Shown: in pieces, positions 47 through 33,473 of the stretch
Layout: each line of letters opens with the position of its first letter
Position numbering within the stretch: the first letter of the stretch is position 1
Assembly: GCA_045837725.1 (NCBI GenBank)
Contig: JBEWZL010000077.1
Span: 744,001 to 777,473, forward strand
DNA from: Vermamoeba vermiformis
Lineage: Eukaryota
Direction: 5' to 3'
DNA: 33,473 bases
The notes under the pieces: model-generated
What the model saw: the letters and a program-made list of their open reading frames with translations, nothing else
Told to the model about the DNA's origin: nothing
The model's database searches: none
Position numbers and translations under genes: made by a program

Positions 47-2081
47 ACAAAACCTGACTTCGAGCTATTCCCTCAATTGGCTAAGACTTGGGACAACAAG
101 TAAGAGAATTTTCCGGAGGAGATCCGAAATTTTGGTTTTGCGCCTTTGCAAGATTGTACTTAATTTTGTTTACATCATAGGTCTCACTCTTTTCAGCTTT
201 ATTTCTTTGGTTACCCAATTATCGTAACGTGGGATCCTCAAACAATCCGCGAAGTTTCAAGGTACGCATCCGGCACTAAACTTGATAGTTTCAATGCGTT
301 CGGTATCAAATATCAATACTTCAATAATATAGAAAATATATATAAATTTTAGAATAATTGCGTTTTTGGACGTTTTGATCGATTTTTGACTTCGCTAACG
401 CCTCATTTTTTAACCTCACTACAGCAACACGGAGGTCTTTCACAAGGTCGGCAATTTGAGTTCGATATTGGACCGCCTAGCTGGATCTGGTGTGCTGATG
501 GTCGATGGTGACACGTGGTCCCGACAACGACGAGTAAGTCATGAAGTGATGGGGATGCGACGATCAAGTGATTGACACGTGTCATTTCAGGTGATGAATC
601 CTTCGTTCAGAATCACCAAGCTGAAATCACTCTTCCCTGCATTCACTCACTCTGGCCACTTGTTGATCAATGCAATCAAAGAAGAAATGAACGAGAACAA
701 TGGAAGTGTGAAGATGTATCCTTTGTTGACCAAGGTACACCTTGCCAATCTGTTCCTAAATGAACGATGTCATTTCTGACTCATTCTATAGATGACGATG
801 GAAGCTATTGGCAAAGCAGGTTTTGGTTTCGATTTTGGCAGTTTTGACAAAAATTCAGCGCTGGAGTTACAATCGTATCAATTCATTATGGACAAGATGG
901 CCGATCCTAAATATTTCTTCTCTATCGTGCAAAAGCTGCCAACGAAAGAGAACAAGAAACTCGAGGAAAGTTTCACCTCATTCCGCAAACTCGTGACTGA
1001 TTTGATCGCTAAGAAACGTGCTCAACCCAAAAAAGAAGGTCGGTTACTTAAACTAATGTTAACCTGTTGGGCGATATGTTGACATTTTGACACTGACACG
1101 TGCTTGTTGTAGGCGAAGAAAGTGACTTGTTGGAGATGCTCGTATCAGCGAATGACGAAGGATCAAAGATGACAGACGAAGAGCTGATTCACAATGTGAA
1201 CACTTTCTTCATTGCTGGTCACGAGACATCATCTTCTGGTACGTTGATATTTCTCTTTGTCATTGTCAATAACGTTAGTAACATGGTTATTACGCAGCAT
1301 TGAACAACACACTTTATCTTTTGGCGAAGAATATGGATGCTCAAGAAAAGGCACGAGAAGAAGTCAAACAAGTTCTTCACGGAGCAGATCCGACATACGA
1401 AGACATCGCACACTTTAACTACATTACTGCTGTCCTTAGAGAAGCTATGCGTATCTTGCCACCGTTGTTAGGATTCTCGAGACAAGCGATCGAAGACACC
1501 ACTGTCAACGGCTATCACGTGCCTAAAGGTACCATGTTCAGCATTCTCTCCGTCGCACTACACAACTCCGAAGAGTTCTACGATGAGCCATCAAAATTCA
1601 AACCTGAACGATGGATGAAAGAGAACGAGAACGAAAAGAACAATGCTGCTCCTTGGTACCCCTTTGGTGCTGGTAAGCGTATTAATTCTGAGAGTTAGAG
1701 TCACATTAAGATAATTGGACGGTAACGCAAATATTTTTGGCTTGACAGAGAAATTTTTGTAAAACCGGACCGCGAACCACCCTGGGTCTGATGCGGTAAC
1801 TTTGGAGTACTTACATATTGACGTGGGTATTGATGTATTTGTCTAAAAGGTCCTCGTATGTGCATTGGCAATAATTTTGCAATGACGGAAATGAAAGCGG
1901 TGCTGGCAATGTTACTGCAACAATTCAAGTTCACGCCGAAAGTCGAGGTAAGAGCTTTAAAATTGCCCTTATATATCCTTAGTTTGATCATATTCTAATT
2001 ATATTGTTCTAGCTTAAATTCCAGCAATCAATTACTCTCAAGCCAGTGGATTCGTACACGATCGGCGTTGAAAAATTGTAA
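47..2081 (+). CDS. Cytochrome P450, multi-exon, 5' end outside window
   Basis: Spliced translation gives the C-helix WSRQR, I-helix FFIAGHETSS, K-helix EAMR, PERW and the heme motif FGAG|PRMCIG (split by intron ~1673-1849). Stop TAA at 2079-2081. All junctions are GT-AG and in frame. Confidence 0.95.
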
Positions 2082-7922: not shown

Positions 7923-10484
7923 ATGACCACCGTGCAATATTCAACACAAAGTAAAGAAGCGATTGAATTCGTGGAAAAAGCGATTTTAGAGGCAAGCAGA
8001 ACCATTCATATTTATAGGGAGATGTTTTGAAGTGTTATCAAGTTGGATCTATTCAGAAAATTTTTAAAATGTAGATTTATGGTTTATTATTAAGCATATG
8101 TAATTGTTTACGATATGCACCATATTAACGTAATTTCTAAAATTTAGATTCTTGCATGGAGCGGAGATCCAATTGCCACAGTTGAATTCAGCGATTGCAG
8201 CTGACGAAAAATTCGGTAAATATTAATTATAGCAAAATTATCAATTTTATTATTATTAATAGGTCGAGGTAGGCTTTCCTTACTTGATCCAAGCCTCGCT
8301 GGATATTTTGAGCACTGGTGTTCGTGGCGACGATCAAAAATTAAATTTATTGTTGAAAAATGCTAGTAAGTATTTAGTTATGTATTACCGTAGTATTACA
8401 ATACAATTAACAACAGATCCATAAATATTTTTTATGGATGTCATAATAAGTTCATTTTTTTCGATATTTTACGGAGCTTACTTGCGTCTGCCATTACTTT
8501 AATTAATATATTTATTAAGGCGATAGATTATTACACGCAAATTCACGTGAAAAACAGCACTTTGAAGCGTTGAAATTGTCGAATGATGGGCGATTTGAAC
8601 CAGCACTCGAGATCTGGAGCAAATTAATTGCTGAACAGCCCTGGGATGTATTGGCACTCAAATATTATAGCGATGCGTACGTATAATACGAACGTTATAT
8701 TATTTTTCGTCGCGTGAATAGCATTGGATCCAGTTTAGTTTTTGCGAAGTTTAATTATCACCGGTTCTCCATACTAATGTTTAATTACGATGTAATTACA
8801 ATTGAATTTGGACTAATATTTCTATATTAGGCTATTCTACATTGGTCGTGTTAATGATTTGAAAGTTTTGTGTGAAAAATATCTCGACGAGTGGAACAAA
8901 CACAAAGAGCATCCACATTACGGGTACGTATAATATATACACATATATTATAGTATTATATTATTGGCGTTTCAAAAGTGCGACAAAAAATGAAGTGGAT
9001 CCAGAAATATTAAAATTTTGTGACACGTGCCATTTGAGCTTTCCGTGGCTCTTTCCTAATTTAGTAATATACCTAATATTCCGCAGGTACATCATGGGCA
9101 TCGCCTCCTTTGGCTACGAAGAGTTTGGACTGTACGACGAAGCGGCCAGGCTGGCCACGATAGGTCTCGAGTGCAACCCTCGCGATGGTTGGTCAGCTCA
9201 CACCCGCGCACACGTGTACGAAATGGAAAATCACGCGAGAGAAGGCATTGAATTCATGATGGCACGTGTCAATGATTGGACGGTAGGTCAAACTTTTCAA
9301 CACCTGTTCATCCGCCCGTTGAAATTTCATCGTGAAAATTTAACCTAACGAGGCTTAGTTGATACTTCGCTTGTAAATTTGCAGATCTAATCTTTGCAAT
9401 AATTTCGTGATTGATAATATTAATTTGCTCGTATTCAGCACGCGGTGTACTTGGCGTGTCATAATTTTTGGCACGTGGCTCTTTATCACATCGAATACGC
9501 TGAATACGAAGATGCATTGAGTACGTAACAGAGTAGTAGAGCAATATTTCCTTATTTAGTAAACTGCCTAACATCGGTTCATGAACAGGATTGGCGGACA
9601 CTGAAGTGTTGCGACGAGCTTGCAGTTCAGGCGCGTTATTAGACATGGTCGATGCGTCATCGATATTGCTCAGATTGGAATTTCAAGGTGAAATTTCATC
9701 GTTTGTGAATGAAAGAGGTCTGCGAATCCAATTCTCATCGAATTAATTTTTAGGAATTAACGTTGGTGTTGAGCGATGGCAAAAAGTTTATCAAACTTGG
9801 GAGCCACATTTGCACGACCATATTTTGTCGTTTAACGATGCACACTTGATGATGGCCTTATTAGGTAATCATTGCCAAATATGGAAAGTCCGTACAATTT
9901 CCCACTAATCATTTCTAAAGGCTCCAAGCAGCCCGAAGAAAAAATCAACAAATTTATATCGTCTTTAGAAAAATACGTTAATACCAAATTAGGAAATGAA
10001 AAAACGACAAACCAGAGGTCAGTTTAAAAAACATGTGATCGATGTCAAACAACTAAATTTTTCCTTTTTTAGAATGTCCGAAGAAGTTGGTTTGCCACTC
10101 GTTAAAGCAATGCACGCTTATTCTAAGGCTGATTATAAAACAGCCGTTGATTTGTTGATGCCCATCAAAGACAAATTCATTCATATTGGAGGCAGTAATG
10201 CTCAACGAGGTAAGATTCAATACTTAAACTTTTTTTTTACACCTCAAAAACAAATACTTTTGAAGGGACTATATTTTTGAAAAATTTTATTATAGATTGG
10301 CCTTAAAAGCTGTTCTAACAGATAATTATTTTTAGACGTGTTTTTACAACTGACTATTATGAGTGCTATCAAAGCCAAAGACATCAAATCAGCAACAATG
10401 TTGATCAATGAGAGACTGGCTGCAAAGCCAAAGAGTCCTTTGAATGCTCGATTGAATGCACTTATTCAACAGTTGCATAGTTAA
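7923..10484 (+). CDS. TTC38: Tetratricopeptide repeat protein 38 homolog; probable GC-AG first intron and a 1-nt insertion at ~8171
   Basis: Spliced motifs PWDVLALK, FGYEE, NPRDGWSAHTRAHVYEM, HNFWHVAL, DMVDASSILLRL, FNDAH and IGGSNAQRDVF are characteristic of TTC38. Stop TAA at 10482-10484. Confidence 0.92.
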
Positions 10485-10598
10485 AAGTGGTTTGTGCATT
10501 AGCGGAACAATATGAATCAAACAATTTATTAATCACTATTTGTGATTCTACACATGCCATTCAGCAATTCATCACATATTGCTTATTGCTTACTTTTG

Positions 10599-13365
10599 TT
10601 ATGCCACTCTAGAATAACAAACTGGCCAAAGAATAGGGCACACCAGTTGAGAAAACAGCCAACTTTGAATTGCACACAAAAGTGGAGTATTGTGTACGCA
10701 CGTTATTAGGGAACACTAAGCAGCTCTCAGAAGACATTGTTTTGAAATTCCAAACCTGGCCAAAAGGTGTTGCACTGAATTGTTCTATTCCTCGTCCTGC
10801 ACCATTGAAATGGACCTGAAAATTAGATCATGTCAATTCCAGTCAATTGTTAAAGTTAATTTTGCCTGCATGCTTATAATAATGATAAAGTGATGAAAGT
10901 TGTTGGCTACATACTGGTTTTGGAATGGTCAATATGGACTTCATCATCCTCAAATCATACACACGTGACACATCAGCAGTAGCTATCATGGTGTATTCAT
11001 CAATGATGTCGACTTTGGCAAATCTGCGATTGTTTTGATCCAACTTGACCTCCCATTTTGAAGATGTCACTGTGTTCAAATCTTTGTCCATGATAATAAT
11101 ACTCTCTACATTGGTGAGGCCCACAAACAAATTATTGAATGGATTGAATTTGGCTGCCAAAATCCTTCCATGATCTACATTTACAGGAACGGTTCGTTGA
11201 TGAGCAATATCATACATCAAATCTGCCATAAAAGATATATAGTATTAGTTGCCTATATTGTGAATGAAACATGTATTACAGTACATACTTGAACTGATGA
11301 GGAATCTGTTATTGGACAAATTGAATAGGCACCTATCACCTTCAATTATACCAACATCAGCATACTTAATCTGTGTCAACTGATTGTTAATTCGATATCC
11401 AAAATGTTGATATTCACTGATAAGTAATGATGGCACTTCATAAGGACTTGAACTCAAAAATTCAACTTTTGTAGCTTCATCATTCAATTTGAAAATTTTC
11501 TGTGATCCATCTCCTAGATTCCACAATCGAAGTTTTTTGCCTTGTGTGCTGGCCAACCAGTACTCATCAATCATTCTTGGATGAAGTTGTACAGGTGAAG
11601 GTGGTGTGCGAAGTTTTTTCACAATAGCTTTGCCGTGCTTCCAATTAACGCCAGATCTGTACAGAAAAATTATCAATTAACATACTGTAAGTGCATAAAT
11701 GACAATGTCATCAAAAAACATACTTGATTCTTGGAGCAACTTTCTCATGCCAAGTCTTTTTTGTATCAGCTTCTAATTGACGGTACAACATTGGTGAATC
11801 AACTTTGACCATTTGTAGCCAATGATAATCTGTTAACATAGCATTCAATGCTTTTGAGGCTGAAAATAATCTGGCTTGATCTTCAGAGCCTAAATGTGCT
11901 GTAACCATTTCTAATAATTCTGCTGGCAGTGCTGCAATGTCAAACTGAGTGTTGCCCAAGAAAAACTTCAATTGCATTTTCTCCATTCGTTTTGCCAAAT
12001 AATCTAGCATACAATACAACGTTAGAAATGCAAACATAGTGTCCATAATCATGTTAGAACCTTCTTCAGATACAGGTTTGCCATCAAACATAAAAGATTT
12101 TAGCACTTTTTCTGGGATACCAGTGTACTTCAATTCAGATAATAATTCAGGTTTGGATTTAAGTAACTCTTTGATGGCCATAACAAAGTCTAAATTATAC
12201 ATGATAAGATTAGTATCAATCTTGAATTCAGCAAATTGTATTTTTTTACATACTCAAAGAATTGTGCAACTTTGTTGGTTCTGTCATTTTGAATTGTGTA
12301 GCAACCAGTTTTCCACCCAACATTCTGAGTAACCAATGAGTTTTGTGTTTAAAGTAACTAGTTCCTTACCTATCACCTAACATCTTAACAAGCTGTGGTA
12401 CACCAAAATACTGCATCAACCTTTCAGCATATCCTCCTAGCACAATAAGAGCGTTCTGATCCTTGATTTTCACTACAAAATAACGTTAGAATAACATTAT
12501 TATCGAATGAAATATTTTTCAGCACATCCTTTTTTCATTTGGATGGCCCCAATAATAATATGTAATTTCCGATTTCTTATAAAAATTAGATAAATTAGTT
12601 TACGTACGGTTTTCAATGCCCGGGGCTTGAACTAAATATTTCAAGCACTCTTTGCGCTCGACAACGCAAACTTCGATTGGTGACTTGTGATCAGGACCAG
12701 AAGGCTCTATTGTTAACACATTCTTTTTCAACATGTGTTCTAAGAGATGCGATCTCGAAGACCTGTTTAGAGTAGCTGATTCTACGATTGCGAGCGTTAG
12801 CATTTCGCCCTTGGAATTTCTCTCGAATGGGTCTGCGCCAAGTTTTAACAACGTAAAAAATATTTTGGGGTGTTCAAATGCACGGAATATGGATATTTTT
12901 CCGGTTTTGTAGAGATGCAGAATAGATTCGTTACGCGCTTTTTCGTTCTTTTTCTTTCTTCGAGCAATATCCTCCGCTAAATAAAAAATTAACCTTAACA
13001 ATACTAAAAATAGGAACGTACCGAAATATTTCTCCCAAGTAAAAAACTTGGAAGTTCTAGCTGCATGACAGTCCAACACATCTCGTTTCAAAATGTCCTT
13101 CCAGACTGTATCGCGATCTTCTTTCTTCGCGAGTAACGTGATAGTATTTGCAATTAATCTAGCACCCTCTAATTTGTCAATTTTAATAGCCTGCGTTAGA
13201 AAAAAGCAAAATCAGAAAATTGGTCTTGATCGGATCTTGGCTTACCGAATGCAATGAATCATGCAATAAAATAATATTTGGGGCATTGGGCATAACGATA
13301 TTGAATTTTTCTCGCAGAGCAGATACAGAATTGCAATTTATCAATTTCACTATGTTTGGATCCAT
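10599..13365 (-). CDS. Ankyrin-like N-terminus + F-box + divergent beta-propeller-like C-terminus
   Basis: The exons join in frame from ATG 13365. They include an ankyrin-like segment (LLKLGADPFERNSKGEM...SPIEVCVV..CLKYLV) and an F-box (IAALPAELLEMVTAHLGSEDQARLFSASKALNAMLTDYHW), followed by NWKHG and WD-like strands (KKLRLWNL, SRVYDLR). The exact stop is 10599 or 10609 depending on the last splice. Confidence 0.7.
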
Positions 13366-13753
13366 TCTAAAGTTTGAAACAGGCTTAATTAATATATAAA
13401 TTAATTAATGTATCATTTATTTTAAAATTATTGTAGGCAATTCCACCCGTTTTTTAGTAAAGGCAGATTTAAAAGTAGGAGTTTGACGTTTACATAGCAA
13501 TTAACTTACATTAACTTACTTCTATATTATAATATTATAGTATTGTTAAATCATAAATATGCGCTTTGTTGCGCTCTTGGGGTTGGCGAACAAAAATAAC
13601 CAAATTTTCAGTGGTTGTTACTTCTGTACCAAAACGGCTACTCATTGAATGAATTATTATTTAGTAGAATATTATACATCATACGATTAGCGCTAAATAT
13701 TACTTGAGCGCAATCGATATTACACAAGATGATGTTCATCTTAACGAAGCAGC

Positions 13754-15783
13754 TTAGTGCGAGGCCATAACAGCTTGACGAACGGATCTGTCGAACTGTT
13801 CTCGGTAATAAACAGCGTTATCTCGTTCAAATCGCTCAAGGTACTTAGATGATTCCAAAAACTCAACGGCAGCCTAATAGAAATAGCAGATCGAGTTAGA
13901 TTAACTTAAATCCATTATTAAACCAATAAATAATAAGCTTTACCTTAATTTCGTTCTCTTCTGTAGTTGCCAAGAACAAGCGCACTTGATCCAACGTCTG
14001 AAAAAAAGGTCACGAACGTTTTTGGAATGCATGTAAGCTTACAAAGGCAGGTGCAAGCGAGCGAATATATTTGGCAAAAGCATCTTCAGAGGCCGTATTT
14101 CTATAAGGACGGGCCTTAAAAACTTCGAGAACATTGCGTTGGATGTGGCTCAGTTCGCTGAACTCGATTTGAGGAGCTTCATATGACGAATTGACTGAGA
14201 TACCTATCGGACATTATAAGTACACTGTTACGGTAATATTGATAATACTTACTTCGCACTGAGTCACTCTCAGATGAGGCTTCGGAATTGTAATGAACGG
14301 ATTCGTTGACGACTTCATGAACGCTGCGGTTGTGCACATCTTCGACGACCCTTTCTTCTTCGTGCATGCTTCTGTTAACAATTTCAGCGGCATTCTCATC
14401 ACCACAAATTTCAGCGCGGATGCGATCCTCTTCAGTGCATTCTTCGTACTCAGCAGCGATGGCAGCTTGATCTGCGGCAATAGCATTGACCTGCTGACTA
14501 ACAGAGCTGTTGATAGCATCAAAGTCTGGGTCAGGATCAACAGTAGTGTTGTGCGACAGAGTGCGTGGATCTTCAGCGATCGAGGAGTTCAGTGACGCAA
14601 CTGTATCGTTAGCAGAGGGTCCTGTAGGAGTCACGGGCACATCTACTCTTTGAGCATCAATATTGAAACGGCTAGGCGAATTAGTAAGTGAAGATCGTCG
14701 TGACGAGTGACCCTTAAGATCCACATCTGCGGCGAGGGCAGAAAAGCTAGAAATTGCAACAGTATGTGATGCACCGCGAGGCAACAGAGGCGTGGTCAAT
14801 GGAGGCGATGAAATAAGCTTAGGAGGTGTATCTAAGCTCAACGAAACATTCGAAATGTTGTTATGGCTGCAGATTCGTTAGGATCCCGAAACAAGCAAGC
14901 AGTTAATGTAGCGACTTACTGTCCGTATTTAACATCCATAGGAGTCTTCAATAACGTAGTCTTGATAGGGCTAGCCAACAAATTGTCAATGCTTGGTGGC
15001 GTAGCGGGGATAGAAAGATCTGTCACGGGCACCAAGGGAGGCAATGAAGATGAAGACGAAGCCATCGAGGAAGTGGAGGTAGTGCTATAAGGGGACGAGA
15101 CTACAAATGTTAAATTAGTAAATTGAAGCAGGTTGCGGTCCGAAAAGGAAGGTTGTTTTGTCAAATAATAGCAAACAGCACAATTTTATAGCATATTTGA
15201 GCAATTCTGCTAATTACTCGTGGTACTAGCGTTATATTATCACGTACCTGTGGTTTTGAAACGAGGAGCAACAACCGATCGGCTCTTCATGTTCGGAAAC
15301 AAAGGAGTCGTCAAAAGTGGGGAAGACATTGTTGGCGTAGGAGGTGAGGGTTGTACATTGTAATTAGGAAGCACGCTCATGTGTTTGGCCTTGATGAGTG
15401 GCGTAGCAATTGGCGAAGAAAATTGAGGCGTAGATGGAGAATCGACAACTGAGCCTTTTCATAATTATAATTAATTAACAACATATTTAATGCGCAAAAA
15501 ATATGTGGAATAATTAATTTGAATTATGCTTACCCATGGAAGGAATGTTAAGATCGCTTGGCTTTAAAAAGGGAGTAGACATTGCTGGCGATACTATTTT
15601 GCTAATCGATGAAATTGATGAGTTTGCTTGGCTGGGAGTGGATTGATTGCTAATAATCTCGTCGTTGCGTGGATGATCGAAAGATGCGTTGATGTCATTA
15701 GTTGAAGTCACATAATCGACGGAATCGTTCAACAACGATAAATTAGGTGTATCAGACATATCATTAACTAACGGTGAGTCCAT
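13754..15783 (-). CDS. Hypothetical protein: long Ser/Thr/Pro-rich disordered region plus a small C-terminal globular domain, 7 exons
   Basis: In-frame GT-AG splicing of ORF pieces 15783-15534, ~15454-15249, ~15100-14920, ~14866-14253 and three short 3' exons ending AAVEFLESSKYLERFERDNAVYYREQFDRSVRQAVMASH*. Confidence 0.75.
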
Positions 15784-21867: not shown

Positions 21868-23590
21868 TTAGTTTAATGGTCTGTAAACCAATCGAGGAAG
21901 CTTTTCGGCCACTTGCGGTACCGCGTCTTTCTTCGTCCAAGGCAAGATAGGCCGTCCGCCAAAAACAGGAGTTGAGTCTGAAAATCCAAGGCTATGCAAG
22001 CGTGTCAATAGTGTCAAAGAGGTAACCCAATCAAATCCGTCAAAAGATCTCGCGGCAACCAAGTACGTTAACTTTTGCAGGCTCGTTAATGCTACTAATT
22101 GCATATTTGATGCGAGGCTAAGAGTTAACTCGCGAACTTTGTGCAGACTAGTCACGTGATTTGCGGCGGCAGATCTGTAGCGATGCAAGCGAGTCAATTT
22201 TGTCAGCTTTGATATGAATGAATAATCTTCTGCCACTACGATCTCTAAATTAATCAATTTGGTCAAATTGGGCATTGGACTGAGAGTTTTCAGTGATTGC
22301 ACATGTAGCTGCGTCAGATCCGTCAAACTATTCAGATCGAGTGGTGTCATTGAATCACTCTTGAAGTGCAAATGTAGCCGCTCTAATGAAGTCAAATTAG
22401 CAATCCATTGCATTCCAAGCTGATTGGAAGACAGCAAGCTTAAGCTTGTTAATTGCGTTAGGGTTGATAACAGTTTTAGATCCGGCTTCTTTTCGATCCA
22501 TAGCTTCATTTCTCGCAAGTTAGTGAATGACGTAATGTTAAGGCTAAGCTGATCTGTGCCATAGCCAGCAGTTAAATGTGTCAGCGTGTGTGGATTTAAA
22601 TAATTCAAAAATTCTCCGGTAAAGCTGTATTCACCGAGCCATATTTTCAGTGAATTTAACTTCTTCATATCTTTCATGAACGCAAATGCGTTGTCACTGA
22701 ATCCGCTGCCGTAACCAATTTCCAGGTCTTGTAAATTTGTCGCAGCTTTGATGGATGCAAAATTTTTGATTCCGTCCATTGAGAGTTTGGTGAGTTTGTT
22801 GCACTCTGTCAACTTATAGGCATCTAGCATTTTCAATTCTTCAATATTTTGGAGCGATATAAGCATGCCTTTCAATTTGAGGCTGGGCAGATGCAACACT
22901 TTGAGGTTTGGAATGTAGTCGTTGATTCTGGGACCCAGTATATCTTCTTTATATTTTAGCGTTGTTAATTTTGGAACTGTTGGATACGTTGTAAGTGGCA
23001 CGTCGCCTTTTGTAATCGAAAAGTATTCCAGATTTGGTATGCACTTCGGATCAGCGAGCACAGCATTTGTGGCTTCTAAATACGTCAAATGTGGTAGTAC
23101 TGTTTTAGCTTTTATGCCTATATACGGCAGTGTCAAGCTTTGCAGGTTTGTTAGGTTGTTTAAGCGAATTGATCCAGCTTCGTAGTTGTATCGGTGATGA
23201 ACGAACGACATATCCAAAGAAATCATGTTCGTTAAATTGCAAAATAGCTTGTTGTAATCATCTCCGAGCATAGTATCCGCTTTATGAACTGTCAAGCTGA
23301 AAAGTTGGTTACATCCACTAAACGTTTCTGCCATCGAGTCAACTTCGCTTGATAGGGGCAGGTAAATATCAAAATGAACTTTGCCAATGCAATTTAACCA
23401 CGTTTTGCATACTGCTCGAGCTATTCGTCGTCGATTGTTGGATTTTATGAATGACAGCGTCAACTCGATCAGCTCGTTTGGAAAGTCACCGAAAAAAATC
23501 TGGATAATAATAATAATAAATATTTAGTGATTATTGTTGGATAAACACGGAATAAATTGAGTTCCGGTGATTTGTTCGTACCTGATCCAT
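21868..23590 (-). CDS. F-box/leucine-rich repeat protein (9-nt first coding exon plus one long exon)
   Basis: ATG GAT CAG|gtacg...ccag|IFFGDFPNELIELTLSFI...ARAVCKTW is an F-box. It is followed by many LxxLTxLxxLxL repeats in the 531-aa ORF. Confidence 0.88.
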
Positions 23591-24926: not shown

Positions 24927-25029
24927 AATTACAATTGTTTGTGCTTTTTATTGCGCTCACTTTGTTGCGTGTTAAATTGAAAGAACTTGGAAACTCGTTC
25001 ATTTTTTAATGCAAACGCATCTGCGCAAC

Positions 25030-25711
25030 ATGCTAGCTTTGCGAACTTGTGGTGCTTATTTGAGGCGCAATTTGCGACCACTTACTGTGGCTAGCCAGCC
25101 GATTATCATCGTGTCAAGTTCAGTGCTTCGATCGGTAAGCCTATAACGTATCCTCGAATTAATTACGATAAATAAACTAACAAATAAATATAGAAAAAAC
25201 ATGGAACGAACATATCGGTGCCAAAGAGCAGGTAGATTTGATTTTAACATTTATATCTGATCCGACACCAGACTCCCTTGTAATTTTGCCTGTCAGGATT
25301 TAAGCTACCGTTCATATTGCAATCAGGTGCTCAGTAAGTAATATTAGGCAACAAATATAATTACACATGGATTTTGCGCGTTTTTTCTTTTGTTTGCGGA
25401 TCTAATCGTTTTTCTCGCAGTGCATGAAGCAACACATCATACCAATTCTTTAAAAAACGGTAAGCTATCATTCATTGAATGTATTTGAGTATTGACATGG
25501 TTAATCGACAGATTTTGTGAGAAAGATCCAAGACGCAGCTCAAAGTTTAGTAGAAGGCGTCGATCTTACGCCACAATCCATTGAACAGGCACAAAAAACC
25601 ACCGACGACATGCACAAGCGTGTCTTAGGAAGCTTTTGGAAGAAATCGCTTGCGTTCAATCCGCTGTACACGAACTTGCAAGCCAACATTGACCTTCGCT
25701 TTATGCCGCGG
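25030..25711 (+). pseudogene. Putative mitochondrial-targeted hypothetical protein; exon 4 interrupted by the transposon left end
   Basis: The N-terminus MLALRTCGAYLRRNLRPLTVAS is Arg-rich and acid-free. Four exons splice in frame, and the frame runs into the TIR and stops at TAA 25724-25726. Confidence 0.6.
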
Positions 25712-25720
25712 CCCTGCAGA

Positions 25721-25823
25721 AAATAATTCGTCCTTGCCTTGGACACGGAGCGAGGCAAGGCAGCCTTGCCTTGGAGTTGGAGCGAGGCGAGGCAAATTGC
25801 CTAGCGGTACGAACAAGGCAAGG
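25721..25823 (+). repeat. Left terminal inverted repeat and subterminal CCTTGCCTYG motifs
   Basis: Motif copies at 25732 (+), 25751 (-), 25764 (+), 25783 (-, one mismatch) and 25814 (-). Confidence 0.9.
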
Positions 25824-27614
25824 AATATTGGTGTACGTATTATTGTCAAATAAGGCGACAATAGTGACTTGGATGCGAGCTACGATGCCTATGAATGCTC
25901 ATTTTGCGTGAAACGTGGCTGATCGAGAGCGACAATGGAACGGCGATAAATTGTAGGCTTCATTGACATAATTTGAAATAAATATGACAAGGATGTATAT
26001 TACGAGCATAGTTTTATCGCGTGCAGCGATTAATTTGATGAAAGAAGCGTTGAAAAAACAATTTAATGAATTTTATTATTCAAGTAAAACTTAAAACTAC
26101 GGGGACATTTCCTGATCTACGACAGGACATACATACCAGCTACCAAATGGATCTTTGCCGCTAAGCTTGTGAATATTATGAATAAATCCTGAACACTGTT
26201 CGCTCGTTTAAATTAATCAAAAATAACGTGCCTGTCAATTGTCGTTCTGATCTAAAAGTCGTCTTATTTAGCGGCATAGATATAGACAATCAATGGGTAA
26301 TTGACGCGGATCGAAAAAGTCGCACTTGATTTCTTGCTTAATATTACGTTCAACGCTCCGACTTCAGCACCAATGTAGCATGCTATGCGCCTTGTGTAGA
26401 TATAGCAGGACTCTGGTACATGAGAGGTTCTGCTGGATGCAGATTTGAAATGTAAGCGGTGCTTGTCAAAATAGTAAGCGTTATTCCGAATAATTCTTTT
26501 TATTAACACTGATAAAACATATTAGGATATAACTTATTCATATGACCAAAGCGGAAGCATTCGGTTATTTCCAAGTCGCTTGTCGATCTCTGGATTTACA
26601 ATTCTTCATTCTACAATATTAAATTATAAGTAAATTTGGGTAAAAAATATTCGAATTGTAGCTATTTATATGCTTACTCTTGTGATTGGGCGATACAATT
26701 TTCCGGTTAGACACGCGATCGAAATCTGACTTACGCTAACGTAACCCCCGGGCTAACTGGGTAGGTAATACCACACTATAGATACATTAAAGGTATTTAT
26801 TGCTAAAAGTAATGAGAAAAATCAGGGTCATGCAGGAGCTCGTGTTGGATGCGAGCGAGGCACGAAATAAATTTGTTGCTTGGTTTTAATCAAAAACGCT
26901 ATCAGATAATAAAACAACCACCTATTTCAATAGGAGTTTACTAAGATTGTATTAGTAAAAATGCTCAGGTAAGCAAGTACGTGACCACCCTGAGGAGATT
27001 TGAAACTTTCGAGTCAATTTTATCGGTAACTCATCATAATTATTAGAAATCATCGCTCAATAGCAAGATTATAGTAATAAAGAAATTAACCAATGGTATT
27101 TTTGATTTATCAGGTTACTTCGTATGATCGATCCGCAAAATCTATCCTTTGGATGCGCAAGACAGTATCATTTTGCAGCACTGAATGCCTTCTTTTAAAT
27201 CTTTACCATGATTGTACAACAACGTCTGATAAAATTTGATTCTGTTGTAAAGTACCGCAATAAACGACTTTTTCATTTCGATTCTCAACGCAATCCACGA
27301 CCACAACTCAGCTTATACAATTTTACAGTGTATTTCTCCGTCATTGATGTTATATATATATATTAATTACATCTATGATTGATATTGGCCTCTATATCAA
27401 CGGCAAAGGCCCATCCGATCGAGACCATGACTTAATCTACGCAACACCGCAAATGTTTGGACAAATACAAATTTGCACCAATTCAAAGGTAAATTATAAG
27501 TACTAATTTCATTTATTGGGAATATTTAAATTTTTTGAACAAGTGGATTTGCACTTAATTTGATCCATCCTTTAAAGACCGATTTATGGTAAAAACTTGC
27601 TTTATTACATTTCA

Positions 27615-30600
27615 TTAATCCCATACAAATATAGTTTGGCCTTCTTGGACCATTACAGCCTTGCTCTTCAACGTACATTGCGACCATCCACACGGGTAGA
27701 ACTCGTCACTCTTTAGTATCGTGCCCTCTCGTACAGGCAAATCTTTCTCGCTGTTGGTGAATCGAATTGGACGCATAGACAAGAACGGAAGTGTATAATA
27801 TCGAGTTAGCTGCTCAGTTGCGATCTTAACGTTCACGATGAAAGTTTTGGTAAATAGTCCTGTAATAGTAGTTCCATCGAACTAATAATAATCTAATTAG
27901 ATCTATTAACAATGAGAGCACGTACATCCAGCACCAATATTACTTCTTTGATTCTCTTCTTTCGTGACTGCGCGCTCGCACTCTTCATCTTTTTGTTGTG
28001 CCAGCAGAATCCGTCGATTATGAATGCAGAGAGTATATCAACATCAGCCTCTTCTTCACCGACAAGATTGTTGACAAGCTCTGCAATACGTCGCATGTCT
28101 TGGTTGTTTGGATTCAAAGGCGTTGGTTCCTTCGGTATTATCAAGTCATAGTCCCTAATGAAGTGAGTATATGAACATATTATTGACTTAACATACGCAA
28201 ATGATTGCTTTTGTTGCTTTCTATTGACATATTGGGCATAAGTGACGACTTGACCGTCGTTATTTTCTATCGGAACGACAGTGGCAGACCGTTGATTCTC
28301 CACCTTAATCAATCGTATTAATACAACTATAACGATTAATAATTAATCGTACCATCCTAGTCAGGAAGTTTGCCTGTTGTCTTCCGTTTGAAACTTGCAG
28401 GATCTGTCGTCGGCGTCGGTTCATCTCTTCATCTCGAGCTGTTGATTGAAAGTGTAGCGGTCCCAAGAAAGCAATTTGGTAAGGAATTGCATACATTGTT
28501 TCGAAATTTGGGAACGACCAGTCAGCGTTAGGATACAAGTCCTAGTTGAACTTTGGTCATACAATTTTCGTTCAAATAGATTAATTTAACACTTACCACC
28601 ATCGATTTTCTTATAGAATAAACCAAATTTTCTAACTTGCCTGCAGGTTGTAGTTCATCACTGGTCCACGTCTTCGTCACGATCATAATTATACCGTTCA
28701 TTATTGTCTTCCAAAGACGGTACTGTTGCACGTGCAGATGTCCATAATATCTTTGTTGGTAAGCGTTAGTTAACGTCTATATGAAATACGAACTAAACCT
28801 TTTGAACATAATGATAGACTGTGCCGCAAATGTCAACCACATGTCACCTTTCAACGAGTTTACATCCGGAGTTCCTTCGCGAAATACATTCATCGTGAGG
28901 CGAGCATAGCCTTCTGCTGGGTAGATACTTCGCATGATTTGGTTGAAATCTACGACCGTAAGTTAGTAATAGACAGTCATTAATCGTATATTTACCCAAT
29001 CGTTGTTGCTGGGTCAACTCAAGCCCAAAGCAGCATGCCAAATTTTTAACGATTCCGATGAATAGTTGATGCAGGTCACAGATTGCAAAGCGTTGAAAGA
29101 AGTTCTTTGCAACGAGAGCAAGGGACCAGAACGGACTCTGATGAGTGTTAGAGTGCGCACCGTATAAGAGCACGTGTCACGTACCACGAAGCCATTCAAG
29201 CCAGTTTGTTGGATCATAGCAGTTTTTTCAGTCCCAGTAAGTACCCCTATAAGCTCAATCTGCTCTCTAGCTGTAATAACAGTTAGTTAATATTGACTTG
29301 ATGAACAGGCTAGACCACCAACCTCGATCAGGATTGCGCAACGTGCGAAACTCGGATCGAAGATCAAAAAATAGTGCCGACGCAGTAGTAGTATAGAATG
29401 AGCTGCATTTCCCCGAAGGGGCAACGACACCTGCGAGCTCAATTTTGCTCATGTGATCGCCTGTGGTGTAAGTGTCGTTTAGTCTTTCTTTATCAGCGTA
29501 CGATACTAACCTTTGATTGCATGAAGTGCGCCCACGGGAAGCTTTCTTGTGCCTTGGAACTCGAAAACAGATAGCTCCTTGTTCTCCAATTTCCGAAGGA
29601 ATTTGATAATGACTTTATCGATGAATTCCTTTTTTCGATGGTTCAGCGACGGAGGAATGTTGGTGATGCAGAACCTGGAGTGCGTTCGACAAGCTATCTG
29701 AAGGATTGTGGTAAGTAAAGCTTACAGTTAATCAATCATACCGAGTTTGGAAAGTTGGCAAACGTCATACTGATTGACGTGTAGCTTTTGTTTCTACTTA
29801 GTTCGCCGACAAAGCCATCAATCCAAAGTGCTACCAGTATGAGCAAAGCATTCTGTGTATCGAGCATTGGTTGGAAGTGATCTTGAATGATCTTCCATCC
29901 CTCAGACGAGGAAGGATGATCGTAGTCATCGCTCCACGAGCTCACCCAATCTAAGCAAGTAAGTCGATTGGCTCTTAATATGTATTCGTACTCACCCTTT
30001 GTCAGATCTTCATTCTTCAATACGTATTCAAGAACGTGTTTGGGTTTATAGTAAGTGATTACTTCATCCGTGCCACCAAACTTGAACATCGATGCTGGAA
30101 TACGATCGAAGAAGAAGTCATCGCAGCGGAACGCAATGTACTTTGTCCTAGGTGTGTCTTCAGCTCTAAACCCTACATGATACACAATATCGAAGATTTG
30201 TTGCAGAGTATTCGCTAGGTAAGAACGTGAGCTATAACTGCTTAACACGAACCAAAACTTACCCGAAAAGGGCACTCCTCGATTACTATAAAATAAGGCT
30301 AACCACAATTTTGTAGTTAAATTTTTGTAATTGGTGAACTCGGCAGGTCTACCACGCTTCACTTGCTGTTCATCTTCGTTGTCGTCATCTTCGATTCCCT
30401 GAAGCACGGGAACGAGCTCAAAGCGTTCTATCTGAATGCTTATCTGGATGGCCACGTTGGTGCCTTCCTGAAGACCAAGCCGAACTAACAATGACACAGG
30501 GTATGTACTATGAGTATACAGGATCGGACAATCTAACAAAAGTTAATATAGAATGACGTAGTACGAACACCAACTCTTCTGAACATTGTCGTTCTCGCCA

Positions 30601-31117
30601 AACTTGACATTGATGTTGACAGTGGCATCCAGCACGACGTAAGTGTTATTCTCAATATAATCATTTAGCTCAATAGTAATAGTTGATGCTACATCGTCCT
30701 CGTCAAGTCTTAGTTTCCTGCAGATCCGTTGGTCAAAATTCTTTGAAAAATTATTATTAATTTTTTGCTCACCAGGAATGATCTGCGAAGTCAAATATAT
30801 GCTCTTTTGCACCACGAGAAGCTACAAAATTTATATTGTAGCTCATGTCCATAGGTTCGAAGATCTCTTCTGCTTGCTCAACCAGAGGTTCGTCAACCAG
30901 GTAATTTTCAAAACGAGATAGCTCACTCTCAACTTATACAAATGATCAACCACACTCTATTGAATTAATACTTACTAAATGTATTTAGCTCTTGCTTATG
31001 ACGTTCTCCTTGCCAATGTGACAATCGAAGGCGTCGAGAGACACGAAGGTCACATATGGTACACCAAACAGTATTGGAGTCAACTCTTTGGTATATCGCA
31101 TCAAATACCGATTCCAT
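27615..31117 (-). CDS. CACTA/CMC-type DDE transposase (TnpD/Tnp2-like), 16 exons, roughly 900-950 aa, with an N-terminal C2H2-like zinc finger
   Basis: The spliced frame is open throughout. Motifs in order: WCTIC..SHWQGERH (Zn finger); HPSSSEGWK; LWIDGF...SYTSISMTFANFP...ITNIPP...KFLRKLE; AIKGDH; CDLHQLFIGIVK; LKGDMWLTF; PNFETMYAIPYQIAFLGPLHFQSTARDEEMN. These parallel the CACTA motifs HP.D..W, DGF, NLP, D.P, D.MH...G, GP and ER. Confidence 0.88.
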
Positions 31118-31237
31118 GGTGGTAAGTTTGACTAAAAATAGAAACAAAAATTTTTGTGGTTTATGTCGTTACAAATTCTTGACTAAATTTTTGTTTCATT
31201 ATTCATACCAACAACCACTCATAGCAGCAAGTCAATT

Positions 31238-33240
31238 ATGGATACTAACGAAGACTATTATCAAGACAACTTCCATGAAGAGCAGTATCAAGATCACGTG
31301 GATCCCCAAGATCAACGACCAAACAAAAGGAGGTAAGGGACTAGATTGTTGAAATATGGTGCTCATATTGCTCTATGAACCATACAATAACATTTTTTGA
31401 TCGAATCAACTCATCCGAGTAAAGTTTGAATTTATTCATTAACTTAAAATATTTTTTAGAAGGCTTGACGAAACCGAAGAACAAGGGGTACCCTACGAAG
31501 AATACAGGTATGACCTACCCTAAATTTTAAAATCATTTAAACCATTTTCTAGGGAACTTGATCCGCAAGTACGCGATGCAGATCTAACAAGAGAAAATCT
31601 CGAAGAAGCTCATCGTATCCTACATCAGATGGATTATGATGACAGAACTCACCCAAATGCACAGTTGGCAACTCAAGTTGAAGTTGCATTGGCAAAAAAA
31701 CGTTCCGATCCGGTCTCTGATCTTTGGGTACGTTATATTATGCTACTTGAGTTGAAATACTTACTTCTCGTTTAAAGAATGGTTGGTTGGGATCAAAGGT
31801 ATTAATCAAAACCTTTCTGTTGGATCCGTATAAACGTATCTCGACGAATCTCAAAGAGTGGATCTTGGCGATGGAAGTACCAGACCCTCTAGTCAAATTA
31901 ATAACAACCAAGGTACAATATACACGCGTGCAATGTATTTACTGATGCTATAGCTATATGTAGGCTGGCGCGTACTGGGACGACAAACGACATGATCTGA
32001 ATACAATGCTAGCTAACGCTCTTTGGTCGGAGAGTAATGATGAACTAAGACAAAGTCTTCAAGAGCAAGGTGCTCAGTTCCTCAATTCTGCGCGGGGTCA
32101 GGAGTTTATTGCTGCTGTGGCGACAACGTTCCGCAACAAAAAGCTACCGAACGACTATGGCCTTCCAAGCTTAAAGTTACAAATGTTTATTAAAGAACGA
32201 ATGTTTGTAGCACAAGGTAACTAATATATTGTCTGTTCGATCCAACAATAGCTCATTATTTGACAAGGTGCCACTTCGCTCAAAGATGCGAAAGAAAGAA
32301 TTGGAATGGTGCTAACAACACAACAAACTCTTCAGTTATATGAAGTACCACAGCAGTTCGAGGGTAAGTTTTAAAGACGTAAGTCAATTACATCAGCCAC
32401 TCACACTTATTCAGAAAACAACGCAGGCCATCTTGTGGCGATCCATGCGAAAGGAGCGAGAGCCAAGCAACCAGCACCAAATGGCGCTCCAAAAGTAGCC
32501 AGAGGGAAACAAGGCATTGCACCAGTTGCGCCCGTTCCCAAACAAGGTCTCATCCCTGTCGCTCCTGTCGCCAAGCACGATGCTGCACTCGTGCCACGTG
32601 CACCAGCAAAGCGACCTTTAGAGCTTGTACCAGTAGCACCACCTAAAGGACAAGGTAAGCAGTTGTAATGTTCGTCAACATTTTAACGAACTGCGTCTAT
32701 CAAGGGAAGCAAGCACTTGCGCCCATCCCCAAGCAACCTGTTGCAAACCAGAATGGTCACGAGGAGGACGAGCACGTGCAAGAGCAGGTGCCAGCTGTCC
32801 CAGCCCCTCCTAAAGCGAAAAGAGGACGAGGTGAGCAGAGCTGCATCAACGTACTCGTTTCTAATCAGGCATTGAAGGTAAACAATCTTCTGGTGGCCGA
32901 AAGCAACCACCTCCAGAACCTGGCAATGCAAAGGCAACCAGAGGACAGGACGCACAAGAGCTGCTTGTTCCCGCGACAAACAATCAGCGTGAAGTGGCCG
33001 AGCGAGAGAATAATGGCAATGCGTCGGGTAATACTACTTTATGACTTGCTCAAACTCTTTATTAACGTCTCATACAGATAATGACACGCCAGCTCAGCCC
33101 TTGATGCGTATGTAACAATCATAAGTAATGAGCTCTATTAACTCTTATTGTTAGGCTATTCACTTCGCGCACGTAGAGACCCTAACGCACCACTCGATGA
33201 AGATCAAGGGACTCAACGCTACGAGGCTACTGAAGACTAG
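31238..33240 (+). CDS. Transposon accessory protein of unknown family (positional TnpA analog), 11 exons, ~480 aa
   Basis: Ten GT-AG introns give an uninterrupted frame: an acidic N-terminus with NKRRR, a helical core, and a Pro/Ala/Lys-rich tail with KQG.APVAP repeats, KAKRGRG and RYSLRARR. TAG at 33238-33240. The gene lies inside the TIRs. Confidence 0.82.
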
Positions 33241-33368
33241 ATTACCAGTCAAGTATTCTTATTGTACAACGCTTGTACTGTATATAAATATTAGTTTCTA
33301 AACCGATATCGTAATTCAATTCATGAAAATACCCGAAGGCTGTATCCCGTCGTCATTCCGTTGGTTTG

Positions 33369-33473
33369 CCTTGCCTTGGTCTTGGAGCAAGGAGCCTTGC
33401 CTCGTGGTTTCCCTGTATACACAATGTATGGAGCCTTGCCTCGCTCCGCACGCAAGGCAAGGACGAATTATTT
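33369..33473 (-). repeat. Right subterminal motifs and terminal inverted repeat (truncated by the window end)
   Basis: CCTTGCCTYG at 33369, 33395 and 33434, CAAGGCAAGG at 33453. The end reads GGACGAATTATTT, the reverse complement of 25721-25733. Confidence 0.9.

What the first reader, a model, noticed from the sequence alone, without database searches (positions are those of the whole stretch)
25712..33473. Intact two-gene CACTA/EnSpm-like transposon hidden by mini-introns
Seen: near-identical inverted ends ~7.75 kb apart and two genes whose frames stay open across 25 introns, with CpGs retained. The ORF track shows only fragments. Known: CACTA/CMC elements encode a DDE transposase plus an accessory DNA-binding protein and have subterminal repeats; some non-plant EnSpm elements begin with CCC and make 2-bp TSDs. 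Inference: this is a young, potentially active and divergent CMC lineage in a protist, with a CCCTG rather than CACTA terminus.
Basis: partly seen in the sequence, partly recalled or inferred. Interest (0 to 1): 0.78.

Follow-up and report, generated by a model that had tools for sequence, protein, structure and literature searches.

The report
Intact two-gene DNA transposon, mini-introns
This is a real mobile DNA element of about 7.8 kb, with matching inverted ends and two complete genes split by 25 tiny introns; it is an ordinary kind of thing, but it belongs to a rare family that known transposon models do not recognise.

Summary
A 41-nt inverted repeat (37/41 complementary, the visible terminal 21 nt identical) bounds 25721-33473 and is cut by the window end. 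GGCAAGG/CCTTGCC units cluster only at the two ends. Two head-to-head genes stay open after splicing: a 930-aa protein (minus strand, 15 introns of 42-55 nt) and a 480-aa protein (plus strand, 10 introns).

Contigs of a DNA run show a second junction with a different flank starting at 25711. This places the left terminus at (G)CCCTGCAG. They also show a contig joining the left-end and right-end sequences, and extra partial copies.

The CACTA/CMC label is only partly supported. Support is a protein-language-model lead to Plavaka and one sub-threshold Pfam Plavaka match in a relative. No window piece hits any transposase Pfam model. The CMCT zinc motifs C(2)C and H(3-4)H are absent, and the terminus is not CA..TG. 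The TSD and the right tip lie beyond the window.

Only 13 short unnamed relatives exist among 1.84 billion representative proteins. CpG retention is uninformative, because the host DNA is not CpG-depleted either. The two RNA runs laid gave no reads, even on the host flank, so they are no test of expression.

Verdict: a genuine, intact-looking two-gene TIR transposon of a divergent, unresolved DDE lineage. Its best lead is EnSpm/Plavaka.

The parts
25711..25761 (+). Left terminal inverted repeat. The terminus is (G)CCCTGCAG at 25711/25712, and 25721-25761 pairs with the right arm.
   Evidence: 41 nt, 90%. (21-mer exact on both ends, 0/100 shuffles). (run X1 has a loose end 'before' 25711: the same end behind an unrelated flank).
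25732..25825 (.). Left subterminal array: three palindromic units of about 31 nt (CCTTGCC..GGCAAGG).
   Evidence: family D1. (period 32, 2.0 copies, 87% matches)..
25826..27614 (.). AT-rich non-coding left arm downstream of the transposase stop. It holds segments that occur in extra, variant copies.
   Evidence: no long frames. (higher summed depth at 26.1-27.8 kb; polymorphic sites; joints 26440->26686 and 26732->26804; loose ends at 26712, 26830 and 27697).
27615..31117 (-). Putative transposase gene: 16 exons, 15 introns (42-55 nt), 930 aa. It has an N-terminal C-x2-C-x12-H-x5-H zinc finger (residues 19-40) and candidate catalytic Asp356 (LWIDGF) and Asp445 (IKGDHM). Exon ends (high-low): 31117-30976, 30932-30773, 30717-30575, 30532-30263, 30214-29996, 29950-29742, 29697-29511, 29460-29323, 29270-29185, 29137-28996, 28949-28799, 28750-28597, 28541-28353, 28303-28197, 28154-27926, 27881-27615.
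   Evidence: curation. (controls). (13 relatives). (W, D, R and FANF invariant in 6 of 6 sequences). (relatives support introns 5 and 6). (motifs).
31118..31237 (.). 120-nt spacer between the two start codons; presumed bidirectional promoter. It lies within an imperfect inverted repeat (31126-31153 / 31185-31212).
   Evidence: pair I4, 28 nt, 75%. Start codons. Promoter function is inferred.
31238..33240 (+). Second gene (ORF2): 11 exons, 10 introns (38-127 nt), 480 aa. It has an acidic N-terminus with a KRRR motif, a central region of about 225 aa, and a basic Pro/Ala/Lys-rich tail (pI 9.7) with (V/I)AP(V/P) repeats and KRGRG. Exons: 31238-31332, 31460-31507, 31553-31727, 31778-31912, 31964-32216, 32268-32363, 32415-32654, 32705-32830, 32869-33027, 33078-33107, 33155-33240.
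   Evidence: curation. (composition). (no Pfam family).
33367..33464 (.). Right subterminal array of the same CCTTGCC/GGCAAGG units.
33433..33473 (-). Right terminal inverted repeat, truncated by the window end. About 9-10 nt plus the flank are missing.

Best explanation
The segment from 25711/25712 to the window end is a nearly complete copy of an autonomous-looking cut-and-paste (class II, TIR) DNA transposon. Only its last 9-10 nt are missing, so the expected length is about 7.77 kb.

Structure (shown):
- It has about 50-nt inverted termini beginning (G)CCCTGCAG.
- It has three palindromic GGCAAGG-type subterminal units at each end.
- It has two genes transcribed outward from a 120-nt shared spacer.

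The minus-strand gene encodes a 930-aa protein that I read as the transposase. It has an N-terminal C2H2-like zinc finger. This is followed by a core with an invariant Asp in a W-x-D block (Asp356) and a second Asp 89 residues later (Asp445).

Mechanism (inferred): the protein binds the TIR and subterminal units, excises the element and reinserts it. ORF2 (480 aa, with a basic Pro/Ala/Lys tail and a KRGRG motif) would help by binding the subterminal repeats or assembling the ends, as TnpA does in En/Spm.

The most likely ancestry of the enzyme is a deep, divergent branch near EnSpm/CACTA-Plavaka (the CMCT clade). It lacks that clade's C(2)C and H(3-4)H zinc motifs, so I do not file it as a member.

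The family has few copies in this organism. These include other junctions, a contig joining left-end and right-end sequences, and partial variants.
For: Structure:
- TIR statistics.
- End-restricted subterminal repeats.
- Two spliced open frames across 25 introns, 22 of them needed for the frame. Exon/intron GC contrast and sense/antisense/shuffle controls.
- Host genes in the same window have similar GTACGT/GTAAG introns. The two P450 introns I read by eye are about 59 and 177 nt.

Mobility:
- Contigs of run X1 show the same left end behind an unrelated flank, aligned from 25711.
- A contig runs from 25823 to 33369. Whether other letters lie between is 'not known' per the tool.
- There are deletion variants and polymorphic extra copies of 26.1-27.8 kb.
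- The long X1 pieces differ from the window at 8 positions in 5,265 nt, with no stop or frameshift.
- Run X5, an aquifer metagenome, holds short pieces with 0-9 differences.

Protein:
- 13 relatives at E<=1e-3 in an exhaustive phmmer search. All are short unnamed ORF fragments from several contigs, as expected for an intron-split repeated gene.
- W, D, R and FANF are invariant in 6 of 6 aligned sequences.
- Three relatives lack intron 5, and one resumes homology after intron 6.

Family lead:
- 28 of 30 named ESM-Atlas hits are Plavaka clusters. The top score is 0.94 with 175 shared features.
- Relative P0012's Asp block matches Pfam Plavaka positions 105-153 of 325 at E 0.072.
- Cys462 lies 17 residues after Asp445. 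From memory, not from a call, this is the position of the first Cys of C(2)C in RAG1.
Against: - No window piece (10 + 9 + 10 scanned) matches Transposase_21, Plavaka or any other transposase Pfam model, even at E<=10 for the exact exons.
- The Atlas query had recognition 1418, below the 2300 mark. The tool states that a third of shuffled proteins also get ten concordant hits.
- An independent exon (exon 7) gave no usable Atlas hit.
- The Plavaka hit is far below the cut-off (12.7 against 26.3 bits). Part of its matched stretch is intron read-through. An unrelated family, DUF4130, scored better on another relative in the same call.
- C(2)C is absent downstream of Asp445; the protein has C-x2-F instead. 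No H-x3-H or H-x4-H exists anywhere in the protein. None is hidden in other frames in a usable way.
- No catalytic Glu could be assigned.
- The terminus is not CA..TG.
- The TSD and right tip were not seen.
- Three word-index searches (two for longer proteins, one on the exon-10 frame) and five scans of contig collections found nothing.
Confidence: 0.55

Rival explanations
1. It is a genuine two-gene TIR cut-and-paste transposon, but its transposase belongs to another DDE superfamily or to an undescribed one, not to the EnSpm/Plavaka/Transib (CMCT) group.
For: - The defining CMCT motifs C(2)C and H(3-4)H were tested and not met.
- The terminus is (G)CCCTG, not CA..TG.
- There is no Pfam transposase match.
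- Only 13 fragment relatives exist in 1.84 billion representatives, none named.
- A C-x2-H motif (residues 538-541, followed by L..IG..K) recalls the [C/D](2)H motif of hAT, MULE, P and Kolobok. That comparison is from memory, not from a call.
Against: - The only family pointers obtained both name Plavaka.
- No hAT dimerisation domain or other superfamily model was hit on the C-terminal pieces.
- From memory, the block around Asp356 (DGF ... FANFP ... NIPP) resembles the first-Asp block of plant CACTA transposases.
Confidence: 0.3
2. The copy is structurally intact but catalytically dead. It is a young non-functional copy, or one that depends on a transposase made elsewhere.
For: - The position expected for the second Cys of C(2)C holds Phe (TTC, one base from TGC).
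- No acidic residue sits beside His541, where, from memory, CACTA and Plavaka carry Glu.
- No excision or empty site was seen.
Against: - 930 and 480 codons are open, and 25 splice-site pairs are intact.
- The long contigs of run X1 shown list no other letter at the Phe position. That table was truncated (65 rows not shown), so this is weak.
- Without relatives for exons 8-10 (one search found none), the family's native residues are unknown.
Confidence: 0.3
3. The inverted ends belong to a foldback or Pack-type non-autonomous element that has captured two host genes. On this reading, neither protein is a transposition protein.
For: - Neither protein hits a transposase model.
- ORF2 has no recognisable domain.
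- The introns look like host introns.
Against: - Relatives of the large protein occur as scattered fragments on many short unnamed contigs. Clusters are of 1-2 members, a pattern typical of repeats.
- The Atlas lead is to a transposase family.
- A conserved Asp block and an N-terminal zinc finger are present.
- Gene size and layout fill the element.
Confidence: 0.07

Closest known systems
EnSpm/CACTA (CMC superfamily; Pfam Transposase_21), e.g. maize En/Spm
   Same: - TIRs plus arrays of short subterminal repeats at both ends.
- A large transposase of about 900-1000 aa, plus a second protein.
- Multi-intron genes.
- A first-Asp block of the DGF type (this resemblance is recalled, not tested).
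   Different: - The terminus is (G)CCCTGCAG, not CACTA.
- The genes are divergently transcribed from a shared spacer, not co-oriented and alternatively spliced.
- There is no C(2)C or H(3-4)H.
- There is no Transposase_21 match on any exon.
- The TSD is unknown.
Plavaka (fungal; Pfam PF18759; PlavakaA/B of Kojima 2025, PMC12730594)
   Same: It is the only family named by the tools: 28 of 30 Atlas hits and one weak Pfam hit on a relative's Asp block. It belongs to the same broad CMCT clade.
   Different: - Per the paper's passages, Plavaka termini are TGT..ACA or CATCA..TGATG, and it keeps C(2)C and H(3-4)H. The element here has neither motif.
- The match is far below Pfam's cut-off.
- The full-length relatives searched for were not found.
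Transib / RAG1, Mirage, Chapaev, ESTA, Lanisha (other CMCT lineages)
   Same: DDE cut-and-paste elements with short TSDs (2-5 bp) and, in some, divergent termini (passages).
   Different: All share the 2C + 3H zinc signature, which is missing here. No sequence match to any solved RAG1 or Transib chain appeared; PDB searches gave only chance-level hits.
hAT and PIF/Harbinger (other TIR superfamilies; Harbinger also has two genes)
   Same: - Both are TIR elements.
- Harbinger has a transposase plus a DNA-binding partner.
- hAT has a C-x2-H motif (recalled).
   Different: No hAT dimerisation domain, DDE_Tnp_4 or Myb-like domain was detected in any piece. The protein is far larger than a Harbinger transposase.

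Membership tests
CMCT clade (EnSpm/CACTA, Mirage, Chapaev, Transib, Plavaka ...; definition from Kojima 2025, PMC12730594) | DDE catalytic triad on an RNase H-like core | tested here: inconclusive
   - Asp356 is invariant in 6 of 6 aligned sequences.
- Asp445 is a candidate second Asp.
- No Glu could be assigned.
- The two AlphaFold2 models, of relatives' fragments, had mean pLDDT 44.0 and 50.4 and were not used.
CMCT clade | C(2)C motif between the second Asp and the Glu | tested here: not met
   The only CxxC in the 930-aa model is in the N-terminal zinc finger (residue 19). After Asp445 there is C462-x2-F465. The alternative frames that carry CxxC are short and bounded by stops.
CMCT clade | H(3-4)H motif before the catalytic Glu | tested here: not met
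   There is no HxxxH or HxxxxH anywhere in the spliced protein. The one in-frame HSNTH lies inside intron 9, over its CTAAC branch site and behind a stop.
CMCT clade / EnSpm | Termini 5'-CA..TG-3' (CACTA in EnSpm) | tested here: not met
   The left end reads (G)CCCTGCAG at 25711/25712. The paper says 'in most cases', so this is not absolute.
CMCT clade / EnSpm | TSD of 2-5 bp (3 bp in EnSpm) | not testable with these tools
   The right tip and flank lie beyond base 33473. No whole genome is held. Read laying is capped at one call, and its table did not show the letters running over the end.
EnSpm (Pfam PF02992) / Plavaka (PF18759) | Match to the family HMM above the gathering score | tested here: not met
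   0 of 29 window pieces match. 1 of 8 relatives matches Plavaka, at 12.7 bits against a cut-off of 26.3. The exons are 28-89 aa and the spliced protein could not be submitted, so a full-length test is still open.
Plant-type CACTA organisation | Subterminal repeat arrays plus a second (TnpA-like) gene | tested here: met
   Arrays are present at both ends. A second 480-aa gene is present. Binding of ORF2 to the repeats is inferred, not shown.
hAT | C-terminal hAT dimerisation domain; 8-bp TSD | tested here: not met
   No Dimer_Tnp_hAT hit on the C-terminal pieces. The TSD is not testable.
PIF/Harbinger | DDE_Tnp_4 transposase plus Myb-like partner; TWA TSD | tested here: not met
   Neither domain is present in any piece of either gene. 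The TSD is not testable.

The most novel reading that the evidence does not exclude
The element founds a previously unrecognised, superfamily-level lineage of eukaryotic DDE transposons. This lineage would branch beside or below the EnSpm/Plavaka/Transib-RAG1 clade but lack that clade's zinc-binding C(2)C/H(3-4)H site. It would have (G)CCCTGCAG termini and a divergently transcribed transposase-plus-partner gene pair, and it would still be mobile in its host.
Probability: 0.22. Interest if true: 0.62.

Novelty: new variant of a known kind. Interest (0 to 1): 0.42.

Why it matters
If the lineage is confirmed, it adds a deep branch next to the transposon group that gave rise to RAG1. This branch would work without the zinc site thought to be universal in that group, which bears on how the RAG1/Transib/CACTA catalytic core evolved.

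It is also a practical warning. An intact 7.8-kb transposon is invisible both to ORF-based and to Pfam-based annotation when its genes are cut into 28-89-aa exons by introns of 38-55 nt (one of 127 nt).

If it is active, a low-copy two-gene element with defined ends could become a genetic tool for its host. If it turns out to be an ordinary divergent EnSpm, it is simply a new family for a repeat library.

Tried and rejected
- Whole genome: none is held, so copies, the right tip and the TSD could not be looked up.
- Earlier notes of this scan: nothing for this genome or sequence. A word search gave two Naegleria CMCT elements in other genomes.
- Word-index protein searches: the 268-aa frame against longer proteins; alignment A1 against longer proteins; the exon-10 frame against near lengths. 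All were empty.
- Collection scans:
  - The TIR 21-mer in metagenome contigs and genome contigs gave 0 matches.
  - Exon 6 in metagenome contigs had 218 pattern matches, none confirmed.
  - Exon 5 in genome contigs had 90 pattern matches, none confirmed.
  - Exon 6 in viral contigs had 12 pattern matches, none confirmed.
  - Alignment queries A2 and A3 were not accepted, because no column stretch was conserved enough.
- Pfam on raw frames and exact exons: no transposase family.
- ESM Atlas on exon 7: no usable hit.
- PDB sequence searches with P0013 and A3: only chance-level hits, Nectin-1 at E 0.15 and dynein at E 1.2.
- AlphaFold2 of relative P0013 (3-row alignment) and P0003 (12 rows): mean pLDDT 44.0 and 50.4. 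These were too poor for a fold search, so none was run.
- Rfam on the window: nothing.
- RNA:
  - No RNA holder was listed.
  - Two RNA-seq runs with the same species label gave 0 reads on all 8,474 bases, host flank included. The tool calls this 'no test'.
- I considered and dropped the idea that the HSNTH in front of exon 10 is the missing H(3)H. It sits in intron 9 behind a stop, with no acceptor upstream.
- Two of the three in-frame, stop-free introns are uncertain: 30262-30215 and 28196-28155.
  - For 30262-30215, relatives P0008 and P0009 have residues at that place, so the count may be 24 rather than 25.
  - The third, intron 5 (29995-29951), is supported by three relatives that lack it.
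It remains a recollection.
- Yuan & Wessler 2011 was not held under the id I tried.
Full report
**What is there**

Reading 25500-33473 and the repeat scan confirm an inverted repeat: 25721-25761 against 33433-33473, 41 nt and 90% complementary. Its outer 21 nt (25721-25741) recur exactly, inverted, as the last 21 nt of the window. None of 100 dinucleotide-preserving shuffles gave two matches. Over the whole window, with arms of 30 nt or more, only one other and weaker inverted pair appears.

The window stops inside the right arm. The 9-10 nt outside 25721 on the left, (G)CCCTGCAG, therefore have no visible partner.

Inside each arm lie palindromic units of about 31 nt, CCTTGCC...GGCAAGG. There are three on the left (25732-25825; Tandem Repeats Finder gives period 32 and 87% matches) and three on the right (33367-33464). 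Five of the 8 CCTTGCC and all 3 GGCAAGG in the window sit in these two terminal stretches. The 11-mer CCTTGCCTTGG with up to one mismatch occurs 6 times against 0.18 expected, and 5 of those are in the ends.

**The genes**

The six-frame list shows only fragments; the longest frame is 268 aa. I curated the splicing by eye on three-frame displays and assembled it by script.

- The minus-strand gene runs 31117->27615. It has 16 exons, 15 GT..AG introns of 42-55 nt and a 930-aa open frame.
- The plus-strand gene runs 31238->33240. It has 11 exons, 10 introns (38-127 nt) and 480 aa.

Removing 22 of the 25 is required to keep the frame open. Exons are 43.4% and 48.6% GC, and introns 33.2% and 32.3%. 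A deliberately permissive spliced-frame finder reaches 977 codons on the sense strand, against 327 on the antisense strand and 147-447 in 10 mononucleotide shuffles.

Three introns are in frame and free of stops.
- One, 29995-29951, is supported by three relatives that lack those residues.
- Another, 30262-30215, is doubtful, because two relatives have residues there.

Intron 6 is supported by relative P0013, whose homology resumes after a 16-residue read-through (45% identity to exon 7). Host genes in the window have similar introns: about 59 and 177 nt in the P450 gene, read by eye.

The two start codons are 120 nt apart and face away from each other.

**Is it mobile and multi-copy?**

No genome is held. 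I therefore laid public runs on 25000-33473. The results are as follows.

- In contigs of DNA run X1, one contig matches the element from 25711 onward but has 76 unrelated letters before it. The same end therefore sits behind a different flank, which fixes the left boundary at 25711 or 25712. This could be another copy, or the reverse complement of this copy's right end. In the latter case no clean 2-3-bp duplication is evident: CGG against CAG at best.
- Another contig goes from 25823 to 33369, suggesting a short derivative that keeps only the ends. The tool marks 'between: not known'.
- Joints at 26440->26686 and 26732->26804, loose ends at 26712, 26830 and 27697, and polymorphic sites with raised summed depth across 26.1-27.8 kb point to further partial variants of the left arm. 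The tool warns that this depth is not a copy number.
- The long X1 pieces over 27710-33398 differ from the window at 8 positions in 5,265 nt.
- Of the 7 differences listed in the gene region, 3 are synonymous, 3 non-synonymous and 1 intronic. A 6-nt gap also falls in an intron. None breaks a frame.
- An aquifer metagenome (X5) holds short pieces with 0-9 differences.
- Two RNA-seq runs with the same species label gave no reads at all, even on the host flank. The tool rates that as no test.

**What family?**

An exhaustive phmmer search of 1.84 billion representative proteins with the 268-aa frame found 13 hits at E<=1e-3. One is the same sequence. The rest are 24-83% identical, all are 242 aa or shorter, and all are unnamed, from clusters of 1-2 members. 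These are ORF fragments of intron-split genes on short contigs.

In the block around the first candidate catalytic Asp, W, D, R and FANF are invariant in 6 of 6 sequences.

No annotated full-length relative was found, and nothing appeared in metagenome, prokaryote-genome or viral contig collections. Pfam finds no transposase family in any of the 29 window pieces, including the exact exons at E<=10.

Two pointers exist, and both are weak.
1. The ESM Atlas places the 268-aa frame next to Plavaka clusters. 28 of 30 named hits are Plavaka; the top score is 0.94 with 175 shared features. But the recognition value of 1418 is below the tool's 2300 mark, and concordant top tens occur for a third of shuffled proteins.
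2. One of 8 relatives (P0012) matches Pfam Plavaka positions 105-153 over its Asp block, at E 0.072 and 12.7 bits against a cut-off of 26.3. An unrelated family, DUF4130, scored better on another relative in the same call.

Exon 7 alone gave no Atlas hit. PDB sequence searches gave only chance-level hits. The two AlphaFold2 models of relatives' fragments were too poor to use, with pLDDT 44.0 and 50.4.

**Testing the CMC label**

I tested the label against its published definition. Kojima 2025 (PMC12730594; passages read, supplements not seen) states three things.
- They mostly have CA..TG termini.
- They make 2-5-bp TSDs.

In the spliced protein the candidate Asp residues are 356 and 445.
- After Asp445 there is only C462-x2-F465.
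- There is a C538-x2-H541 motif.
- There is no HxxxH or HxxxxH anywhere, and no assignable Glu.
- Other frames hide nothing usable.
- The terminus is (G)CCCTG.
- The TSD cannot be tested.

Two defining features are therefore tested and not met, so I do not file the element as a CMC member. Its layout does work like one: TIRs, subterminal arrays, a large transposase with an N-terminal C-x2-C-x12-H-x5-H finger, and a second gene.

It differs from En/Spm in its divergent gene pair. ORF2 has an acidic head, a KRRR motif and a basic Pro/Ala/Lys tail with KRGRG (pI 9.7 for residues 276-480). It has no Pfam family. Its DNA-binding role is an analogy, not a finding.

**Age and activity**

CpG observed/expected is 1.07 in the element and 1.16 in the 25.7 kb of host DNA. 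Retained CpGs therefore carry no information on age here.

Open frames, intact splice sites, near-identity between samples and extra junctions fit a recent element. The missing zinc ligands, the unassigned Glu and the lack of any excision evidence leave activity open.

**Verdict**

This is a real, nearly complete, intact-looking two-gene TIR DNA transposon of a rare and divergent DDE lineage. EnSpm/Plavaka is the best lead, not an established membership. The decisive tests could not be run here. They are full-length HMM-HMM and structure comparison of the spliced protein, and the right tip, TSD and copy census in the genome.

Noticed in passing
window 25000-25700 (host flank), seen in run X1: The host flank is present as two strongly diverged haplotypes. 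For example, 13 single-base differences are listed between 25302 and 25434, each at about 279 of 606 depth. The element body over 27.7-33.4 kb showed only fixed differences from the window.
   Followed up: partly
window 25505-25726 (+): A 73-aa open frame with no Pfam match runs straight into the left terminus and stops inside the TIR. The element may therefore have landed in or at the end of a host exon.
   Followed up: partly
window 26712-26830 and 26981-27829: Segments of the element's non-coding left arm have up to about 2-3 times the summed contig depth of the gene region in run X1. They also have loose ends and internal-deletion joints. This suggests other repeats, or older family members that share this arm.
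   Followed up: partly
window 31126-31153 / 31185-31212: An imperfect 28-nt inverted repeat (75%) spans the spacer between the two divergent start codons. It is a possible shared regulatory element.
   Followed up: no
run X5 (aquifer metagenome), pieces on window 27615-33321: Short contigs with 0-9 differences to the element occur at depth 2-4 in an environmental metagenome. Two bins (25849-26131 and 30943-31225) reach depth 36-48, and most of the laid contigs run on into unlike sequence.
   Followed up: no
window 21868-23523 (-): A single uninterrupted 551-aa leucine-rich-repeat frame, with only a weak Pfam LRR hit (E 0.0018). This is unusual in a window where other genes are cut by many short introns.
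   Followed up: no
window 10001-15000: CpG observed/expected is 0.85 and TpG/CpA is 1.25 here. Every other 5-kb block of the host DNA shows 1.18-1.26 for CpG.
   Followed up: no
window 1239-1297 and 1673-1849 (+): The host cytochrome P450 gene (Pfam p450, E 1.3e-40) is split by introns of about 59 and 177 nt. The second interrupts the haem-binding motif. The donor types (GTACGT, GTAAGC) are the same as in the element's genes.
   Followed up: partly
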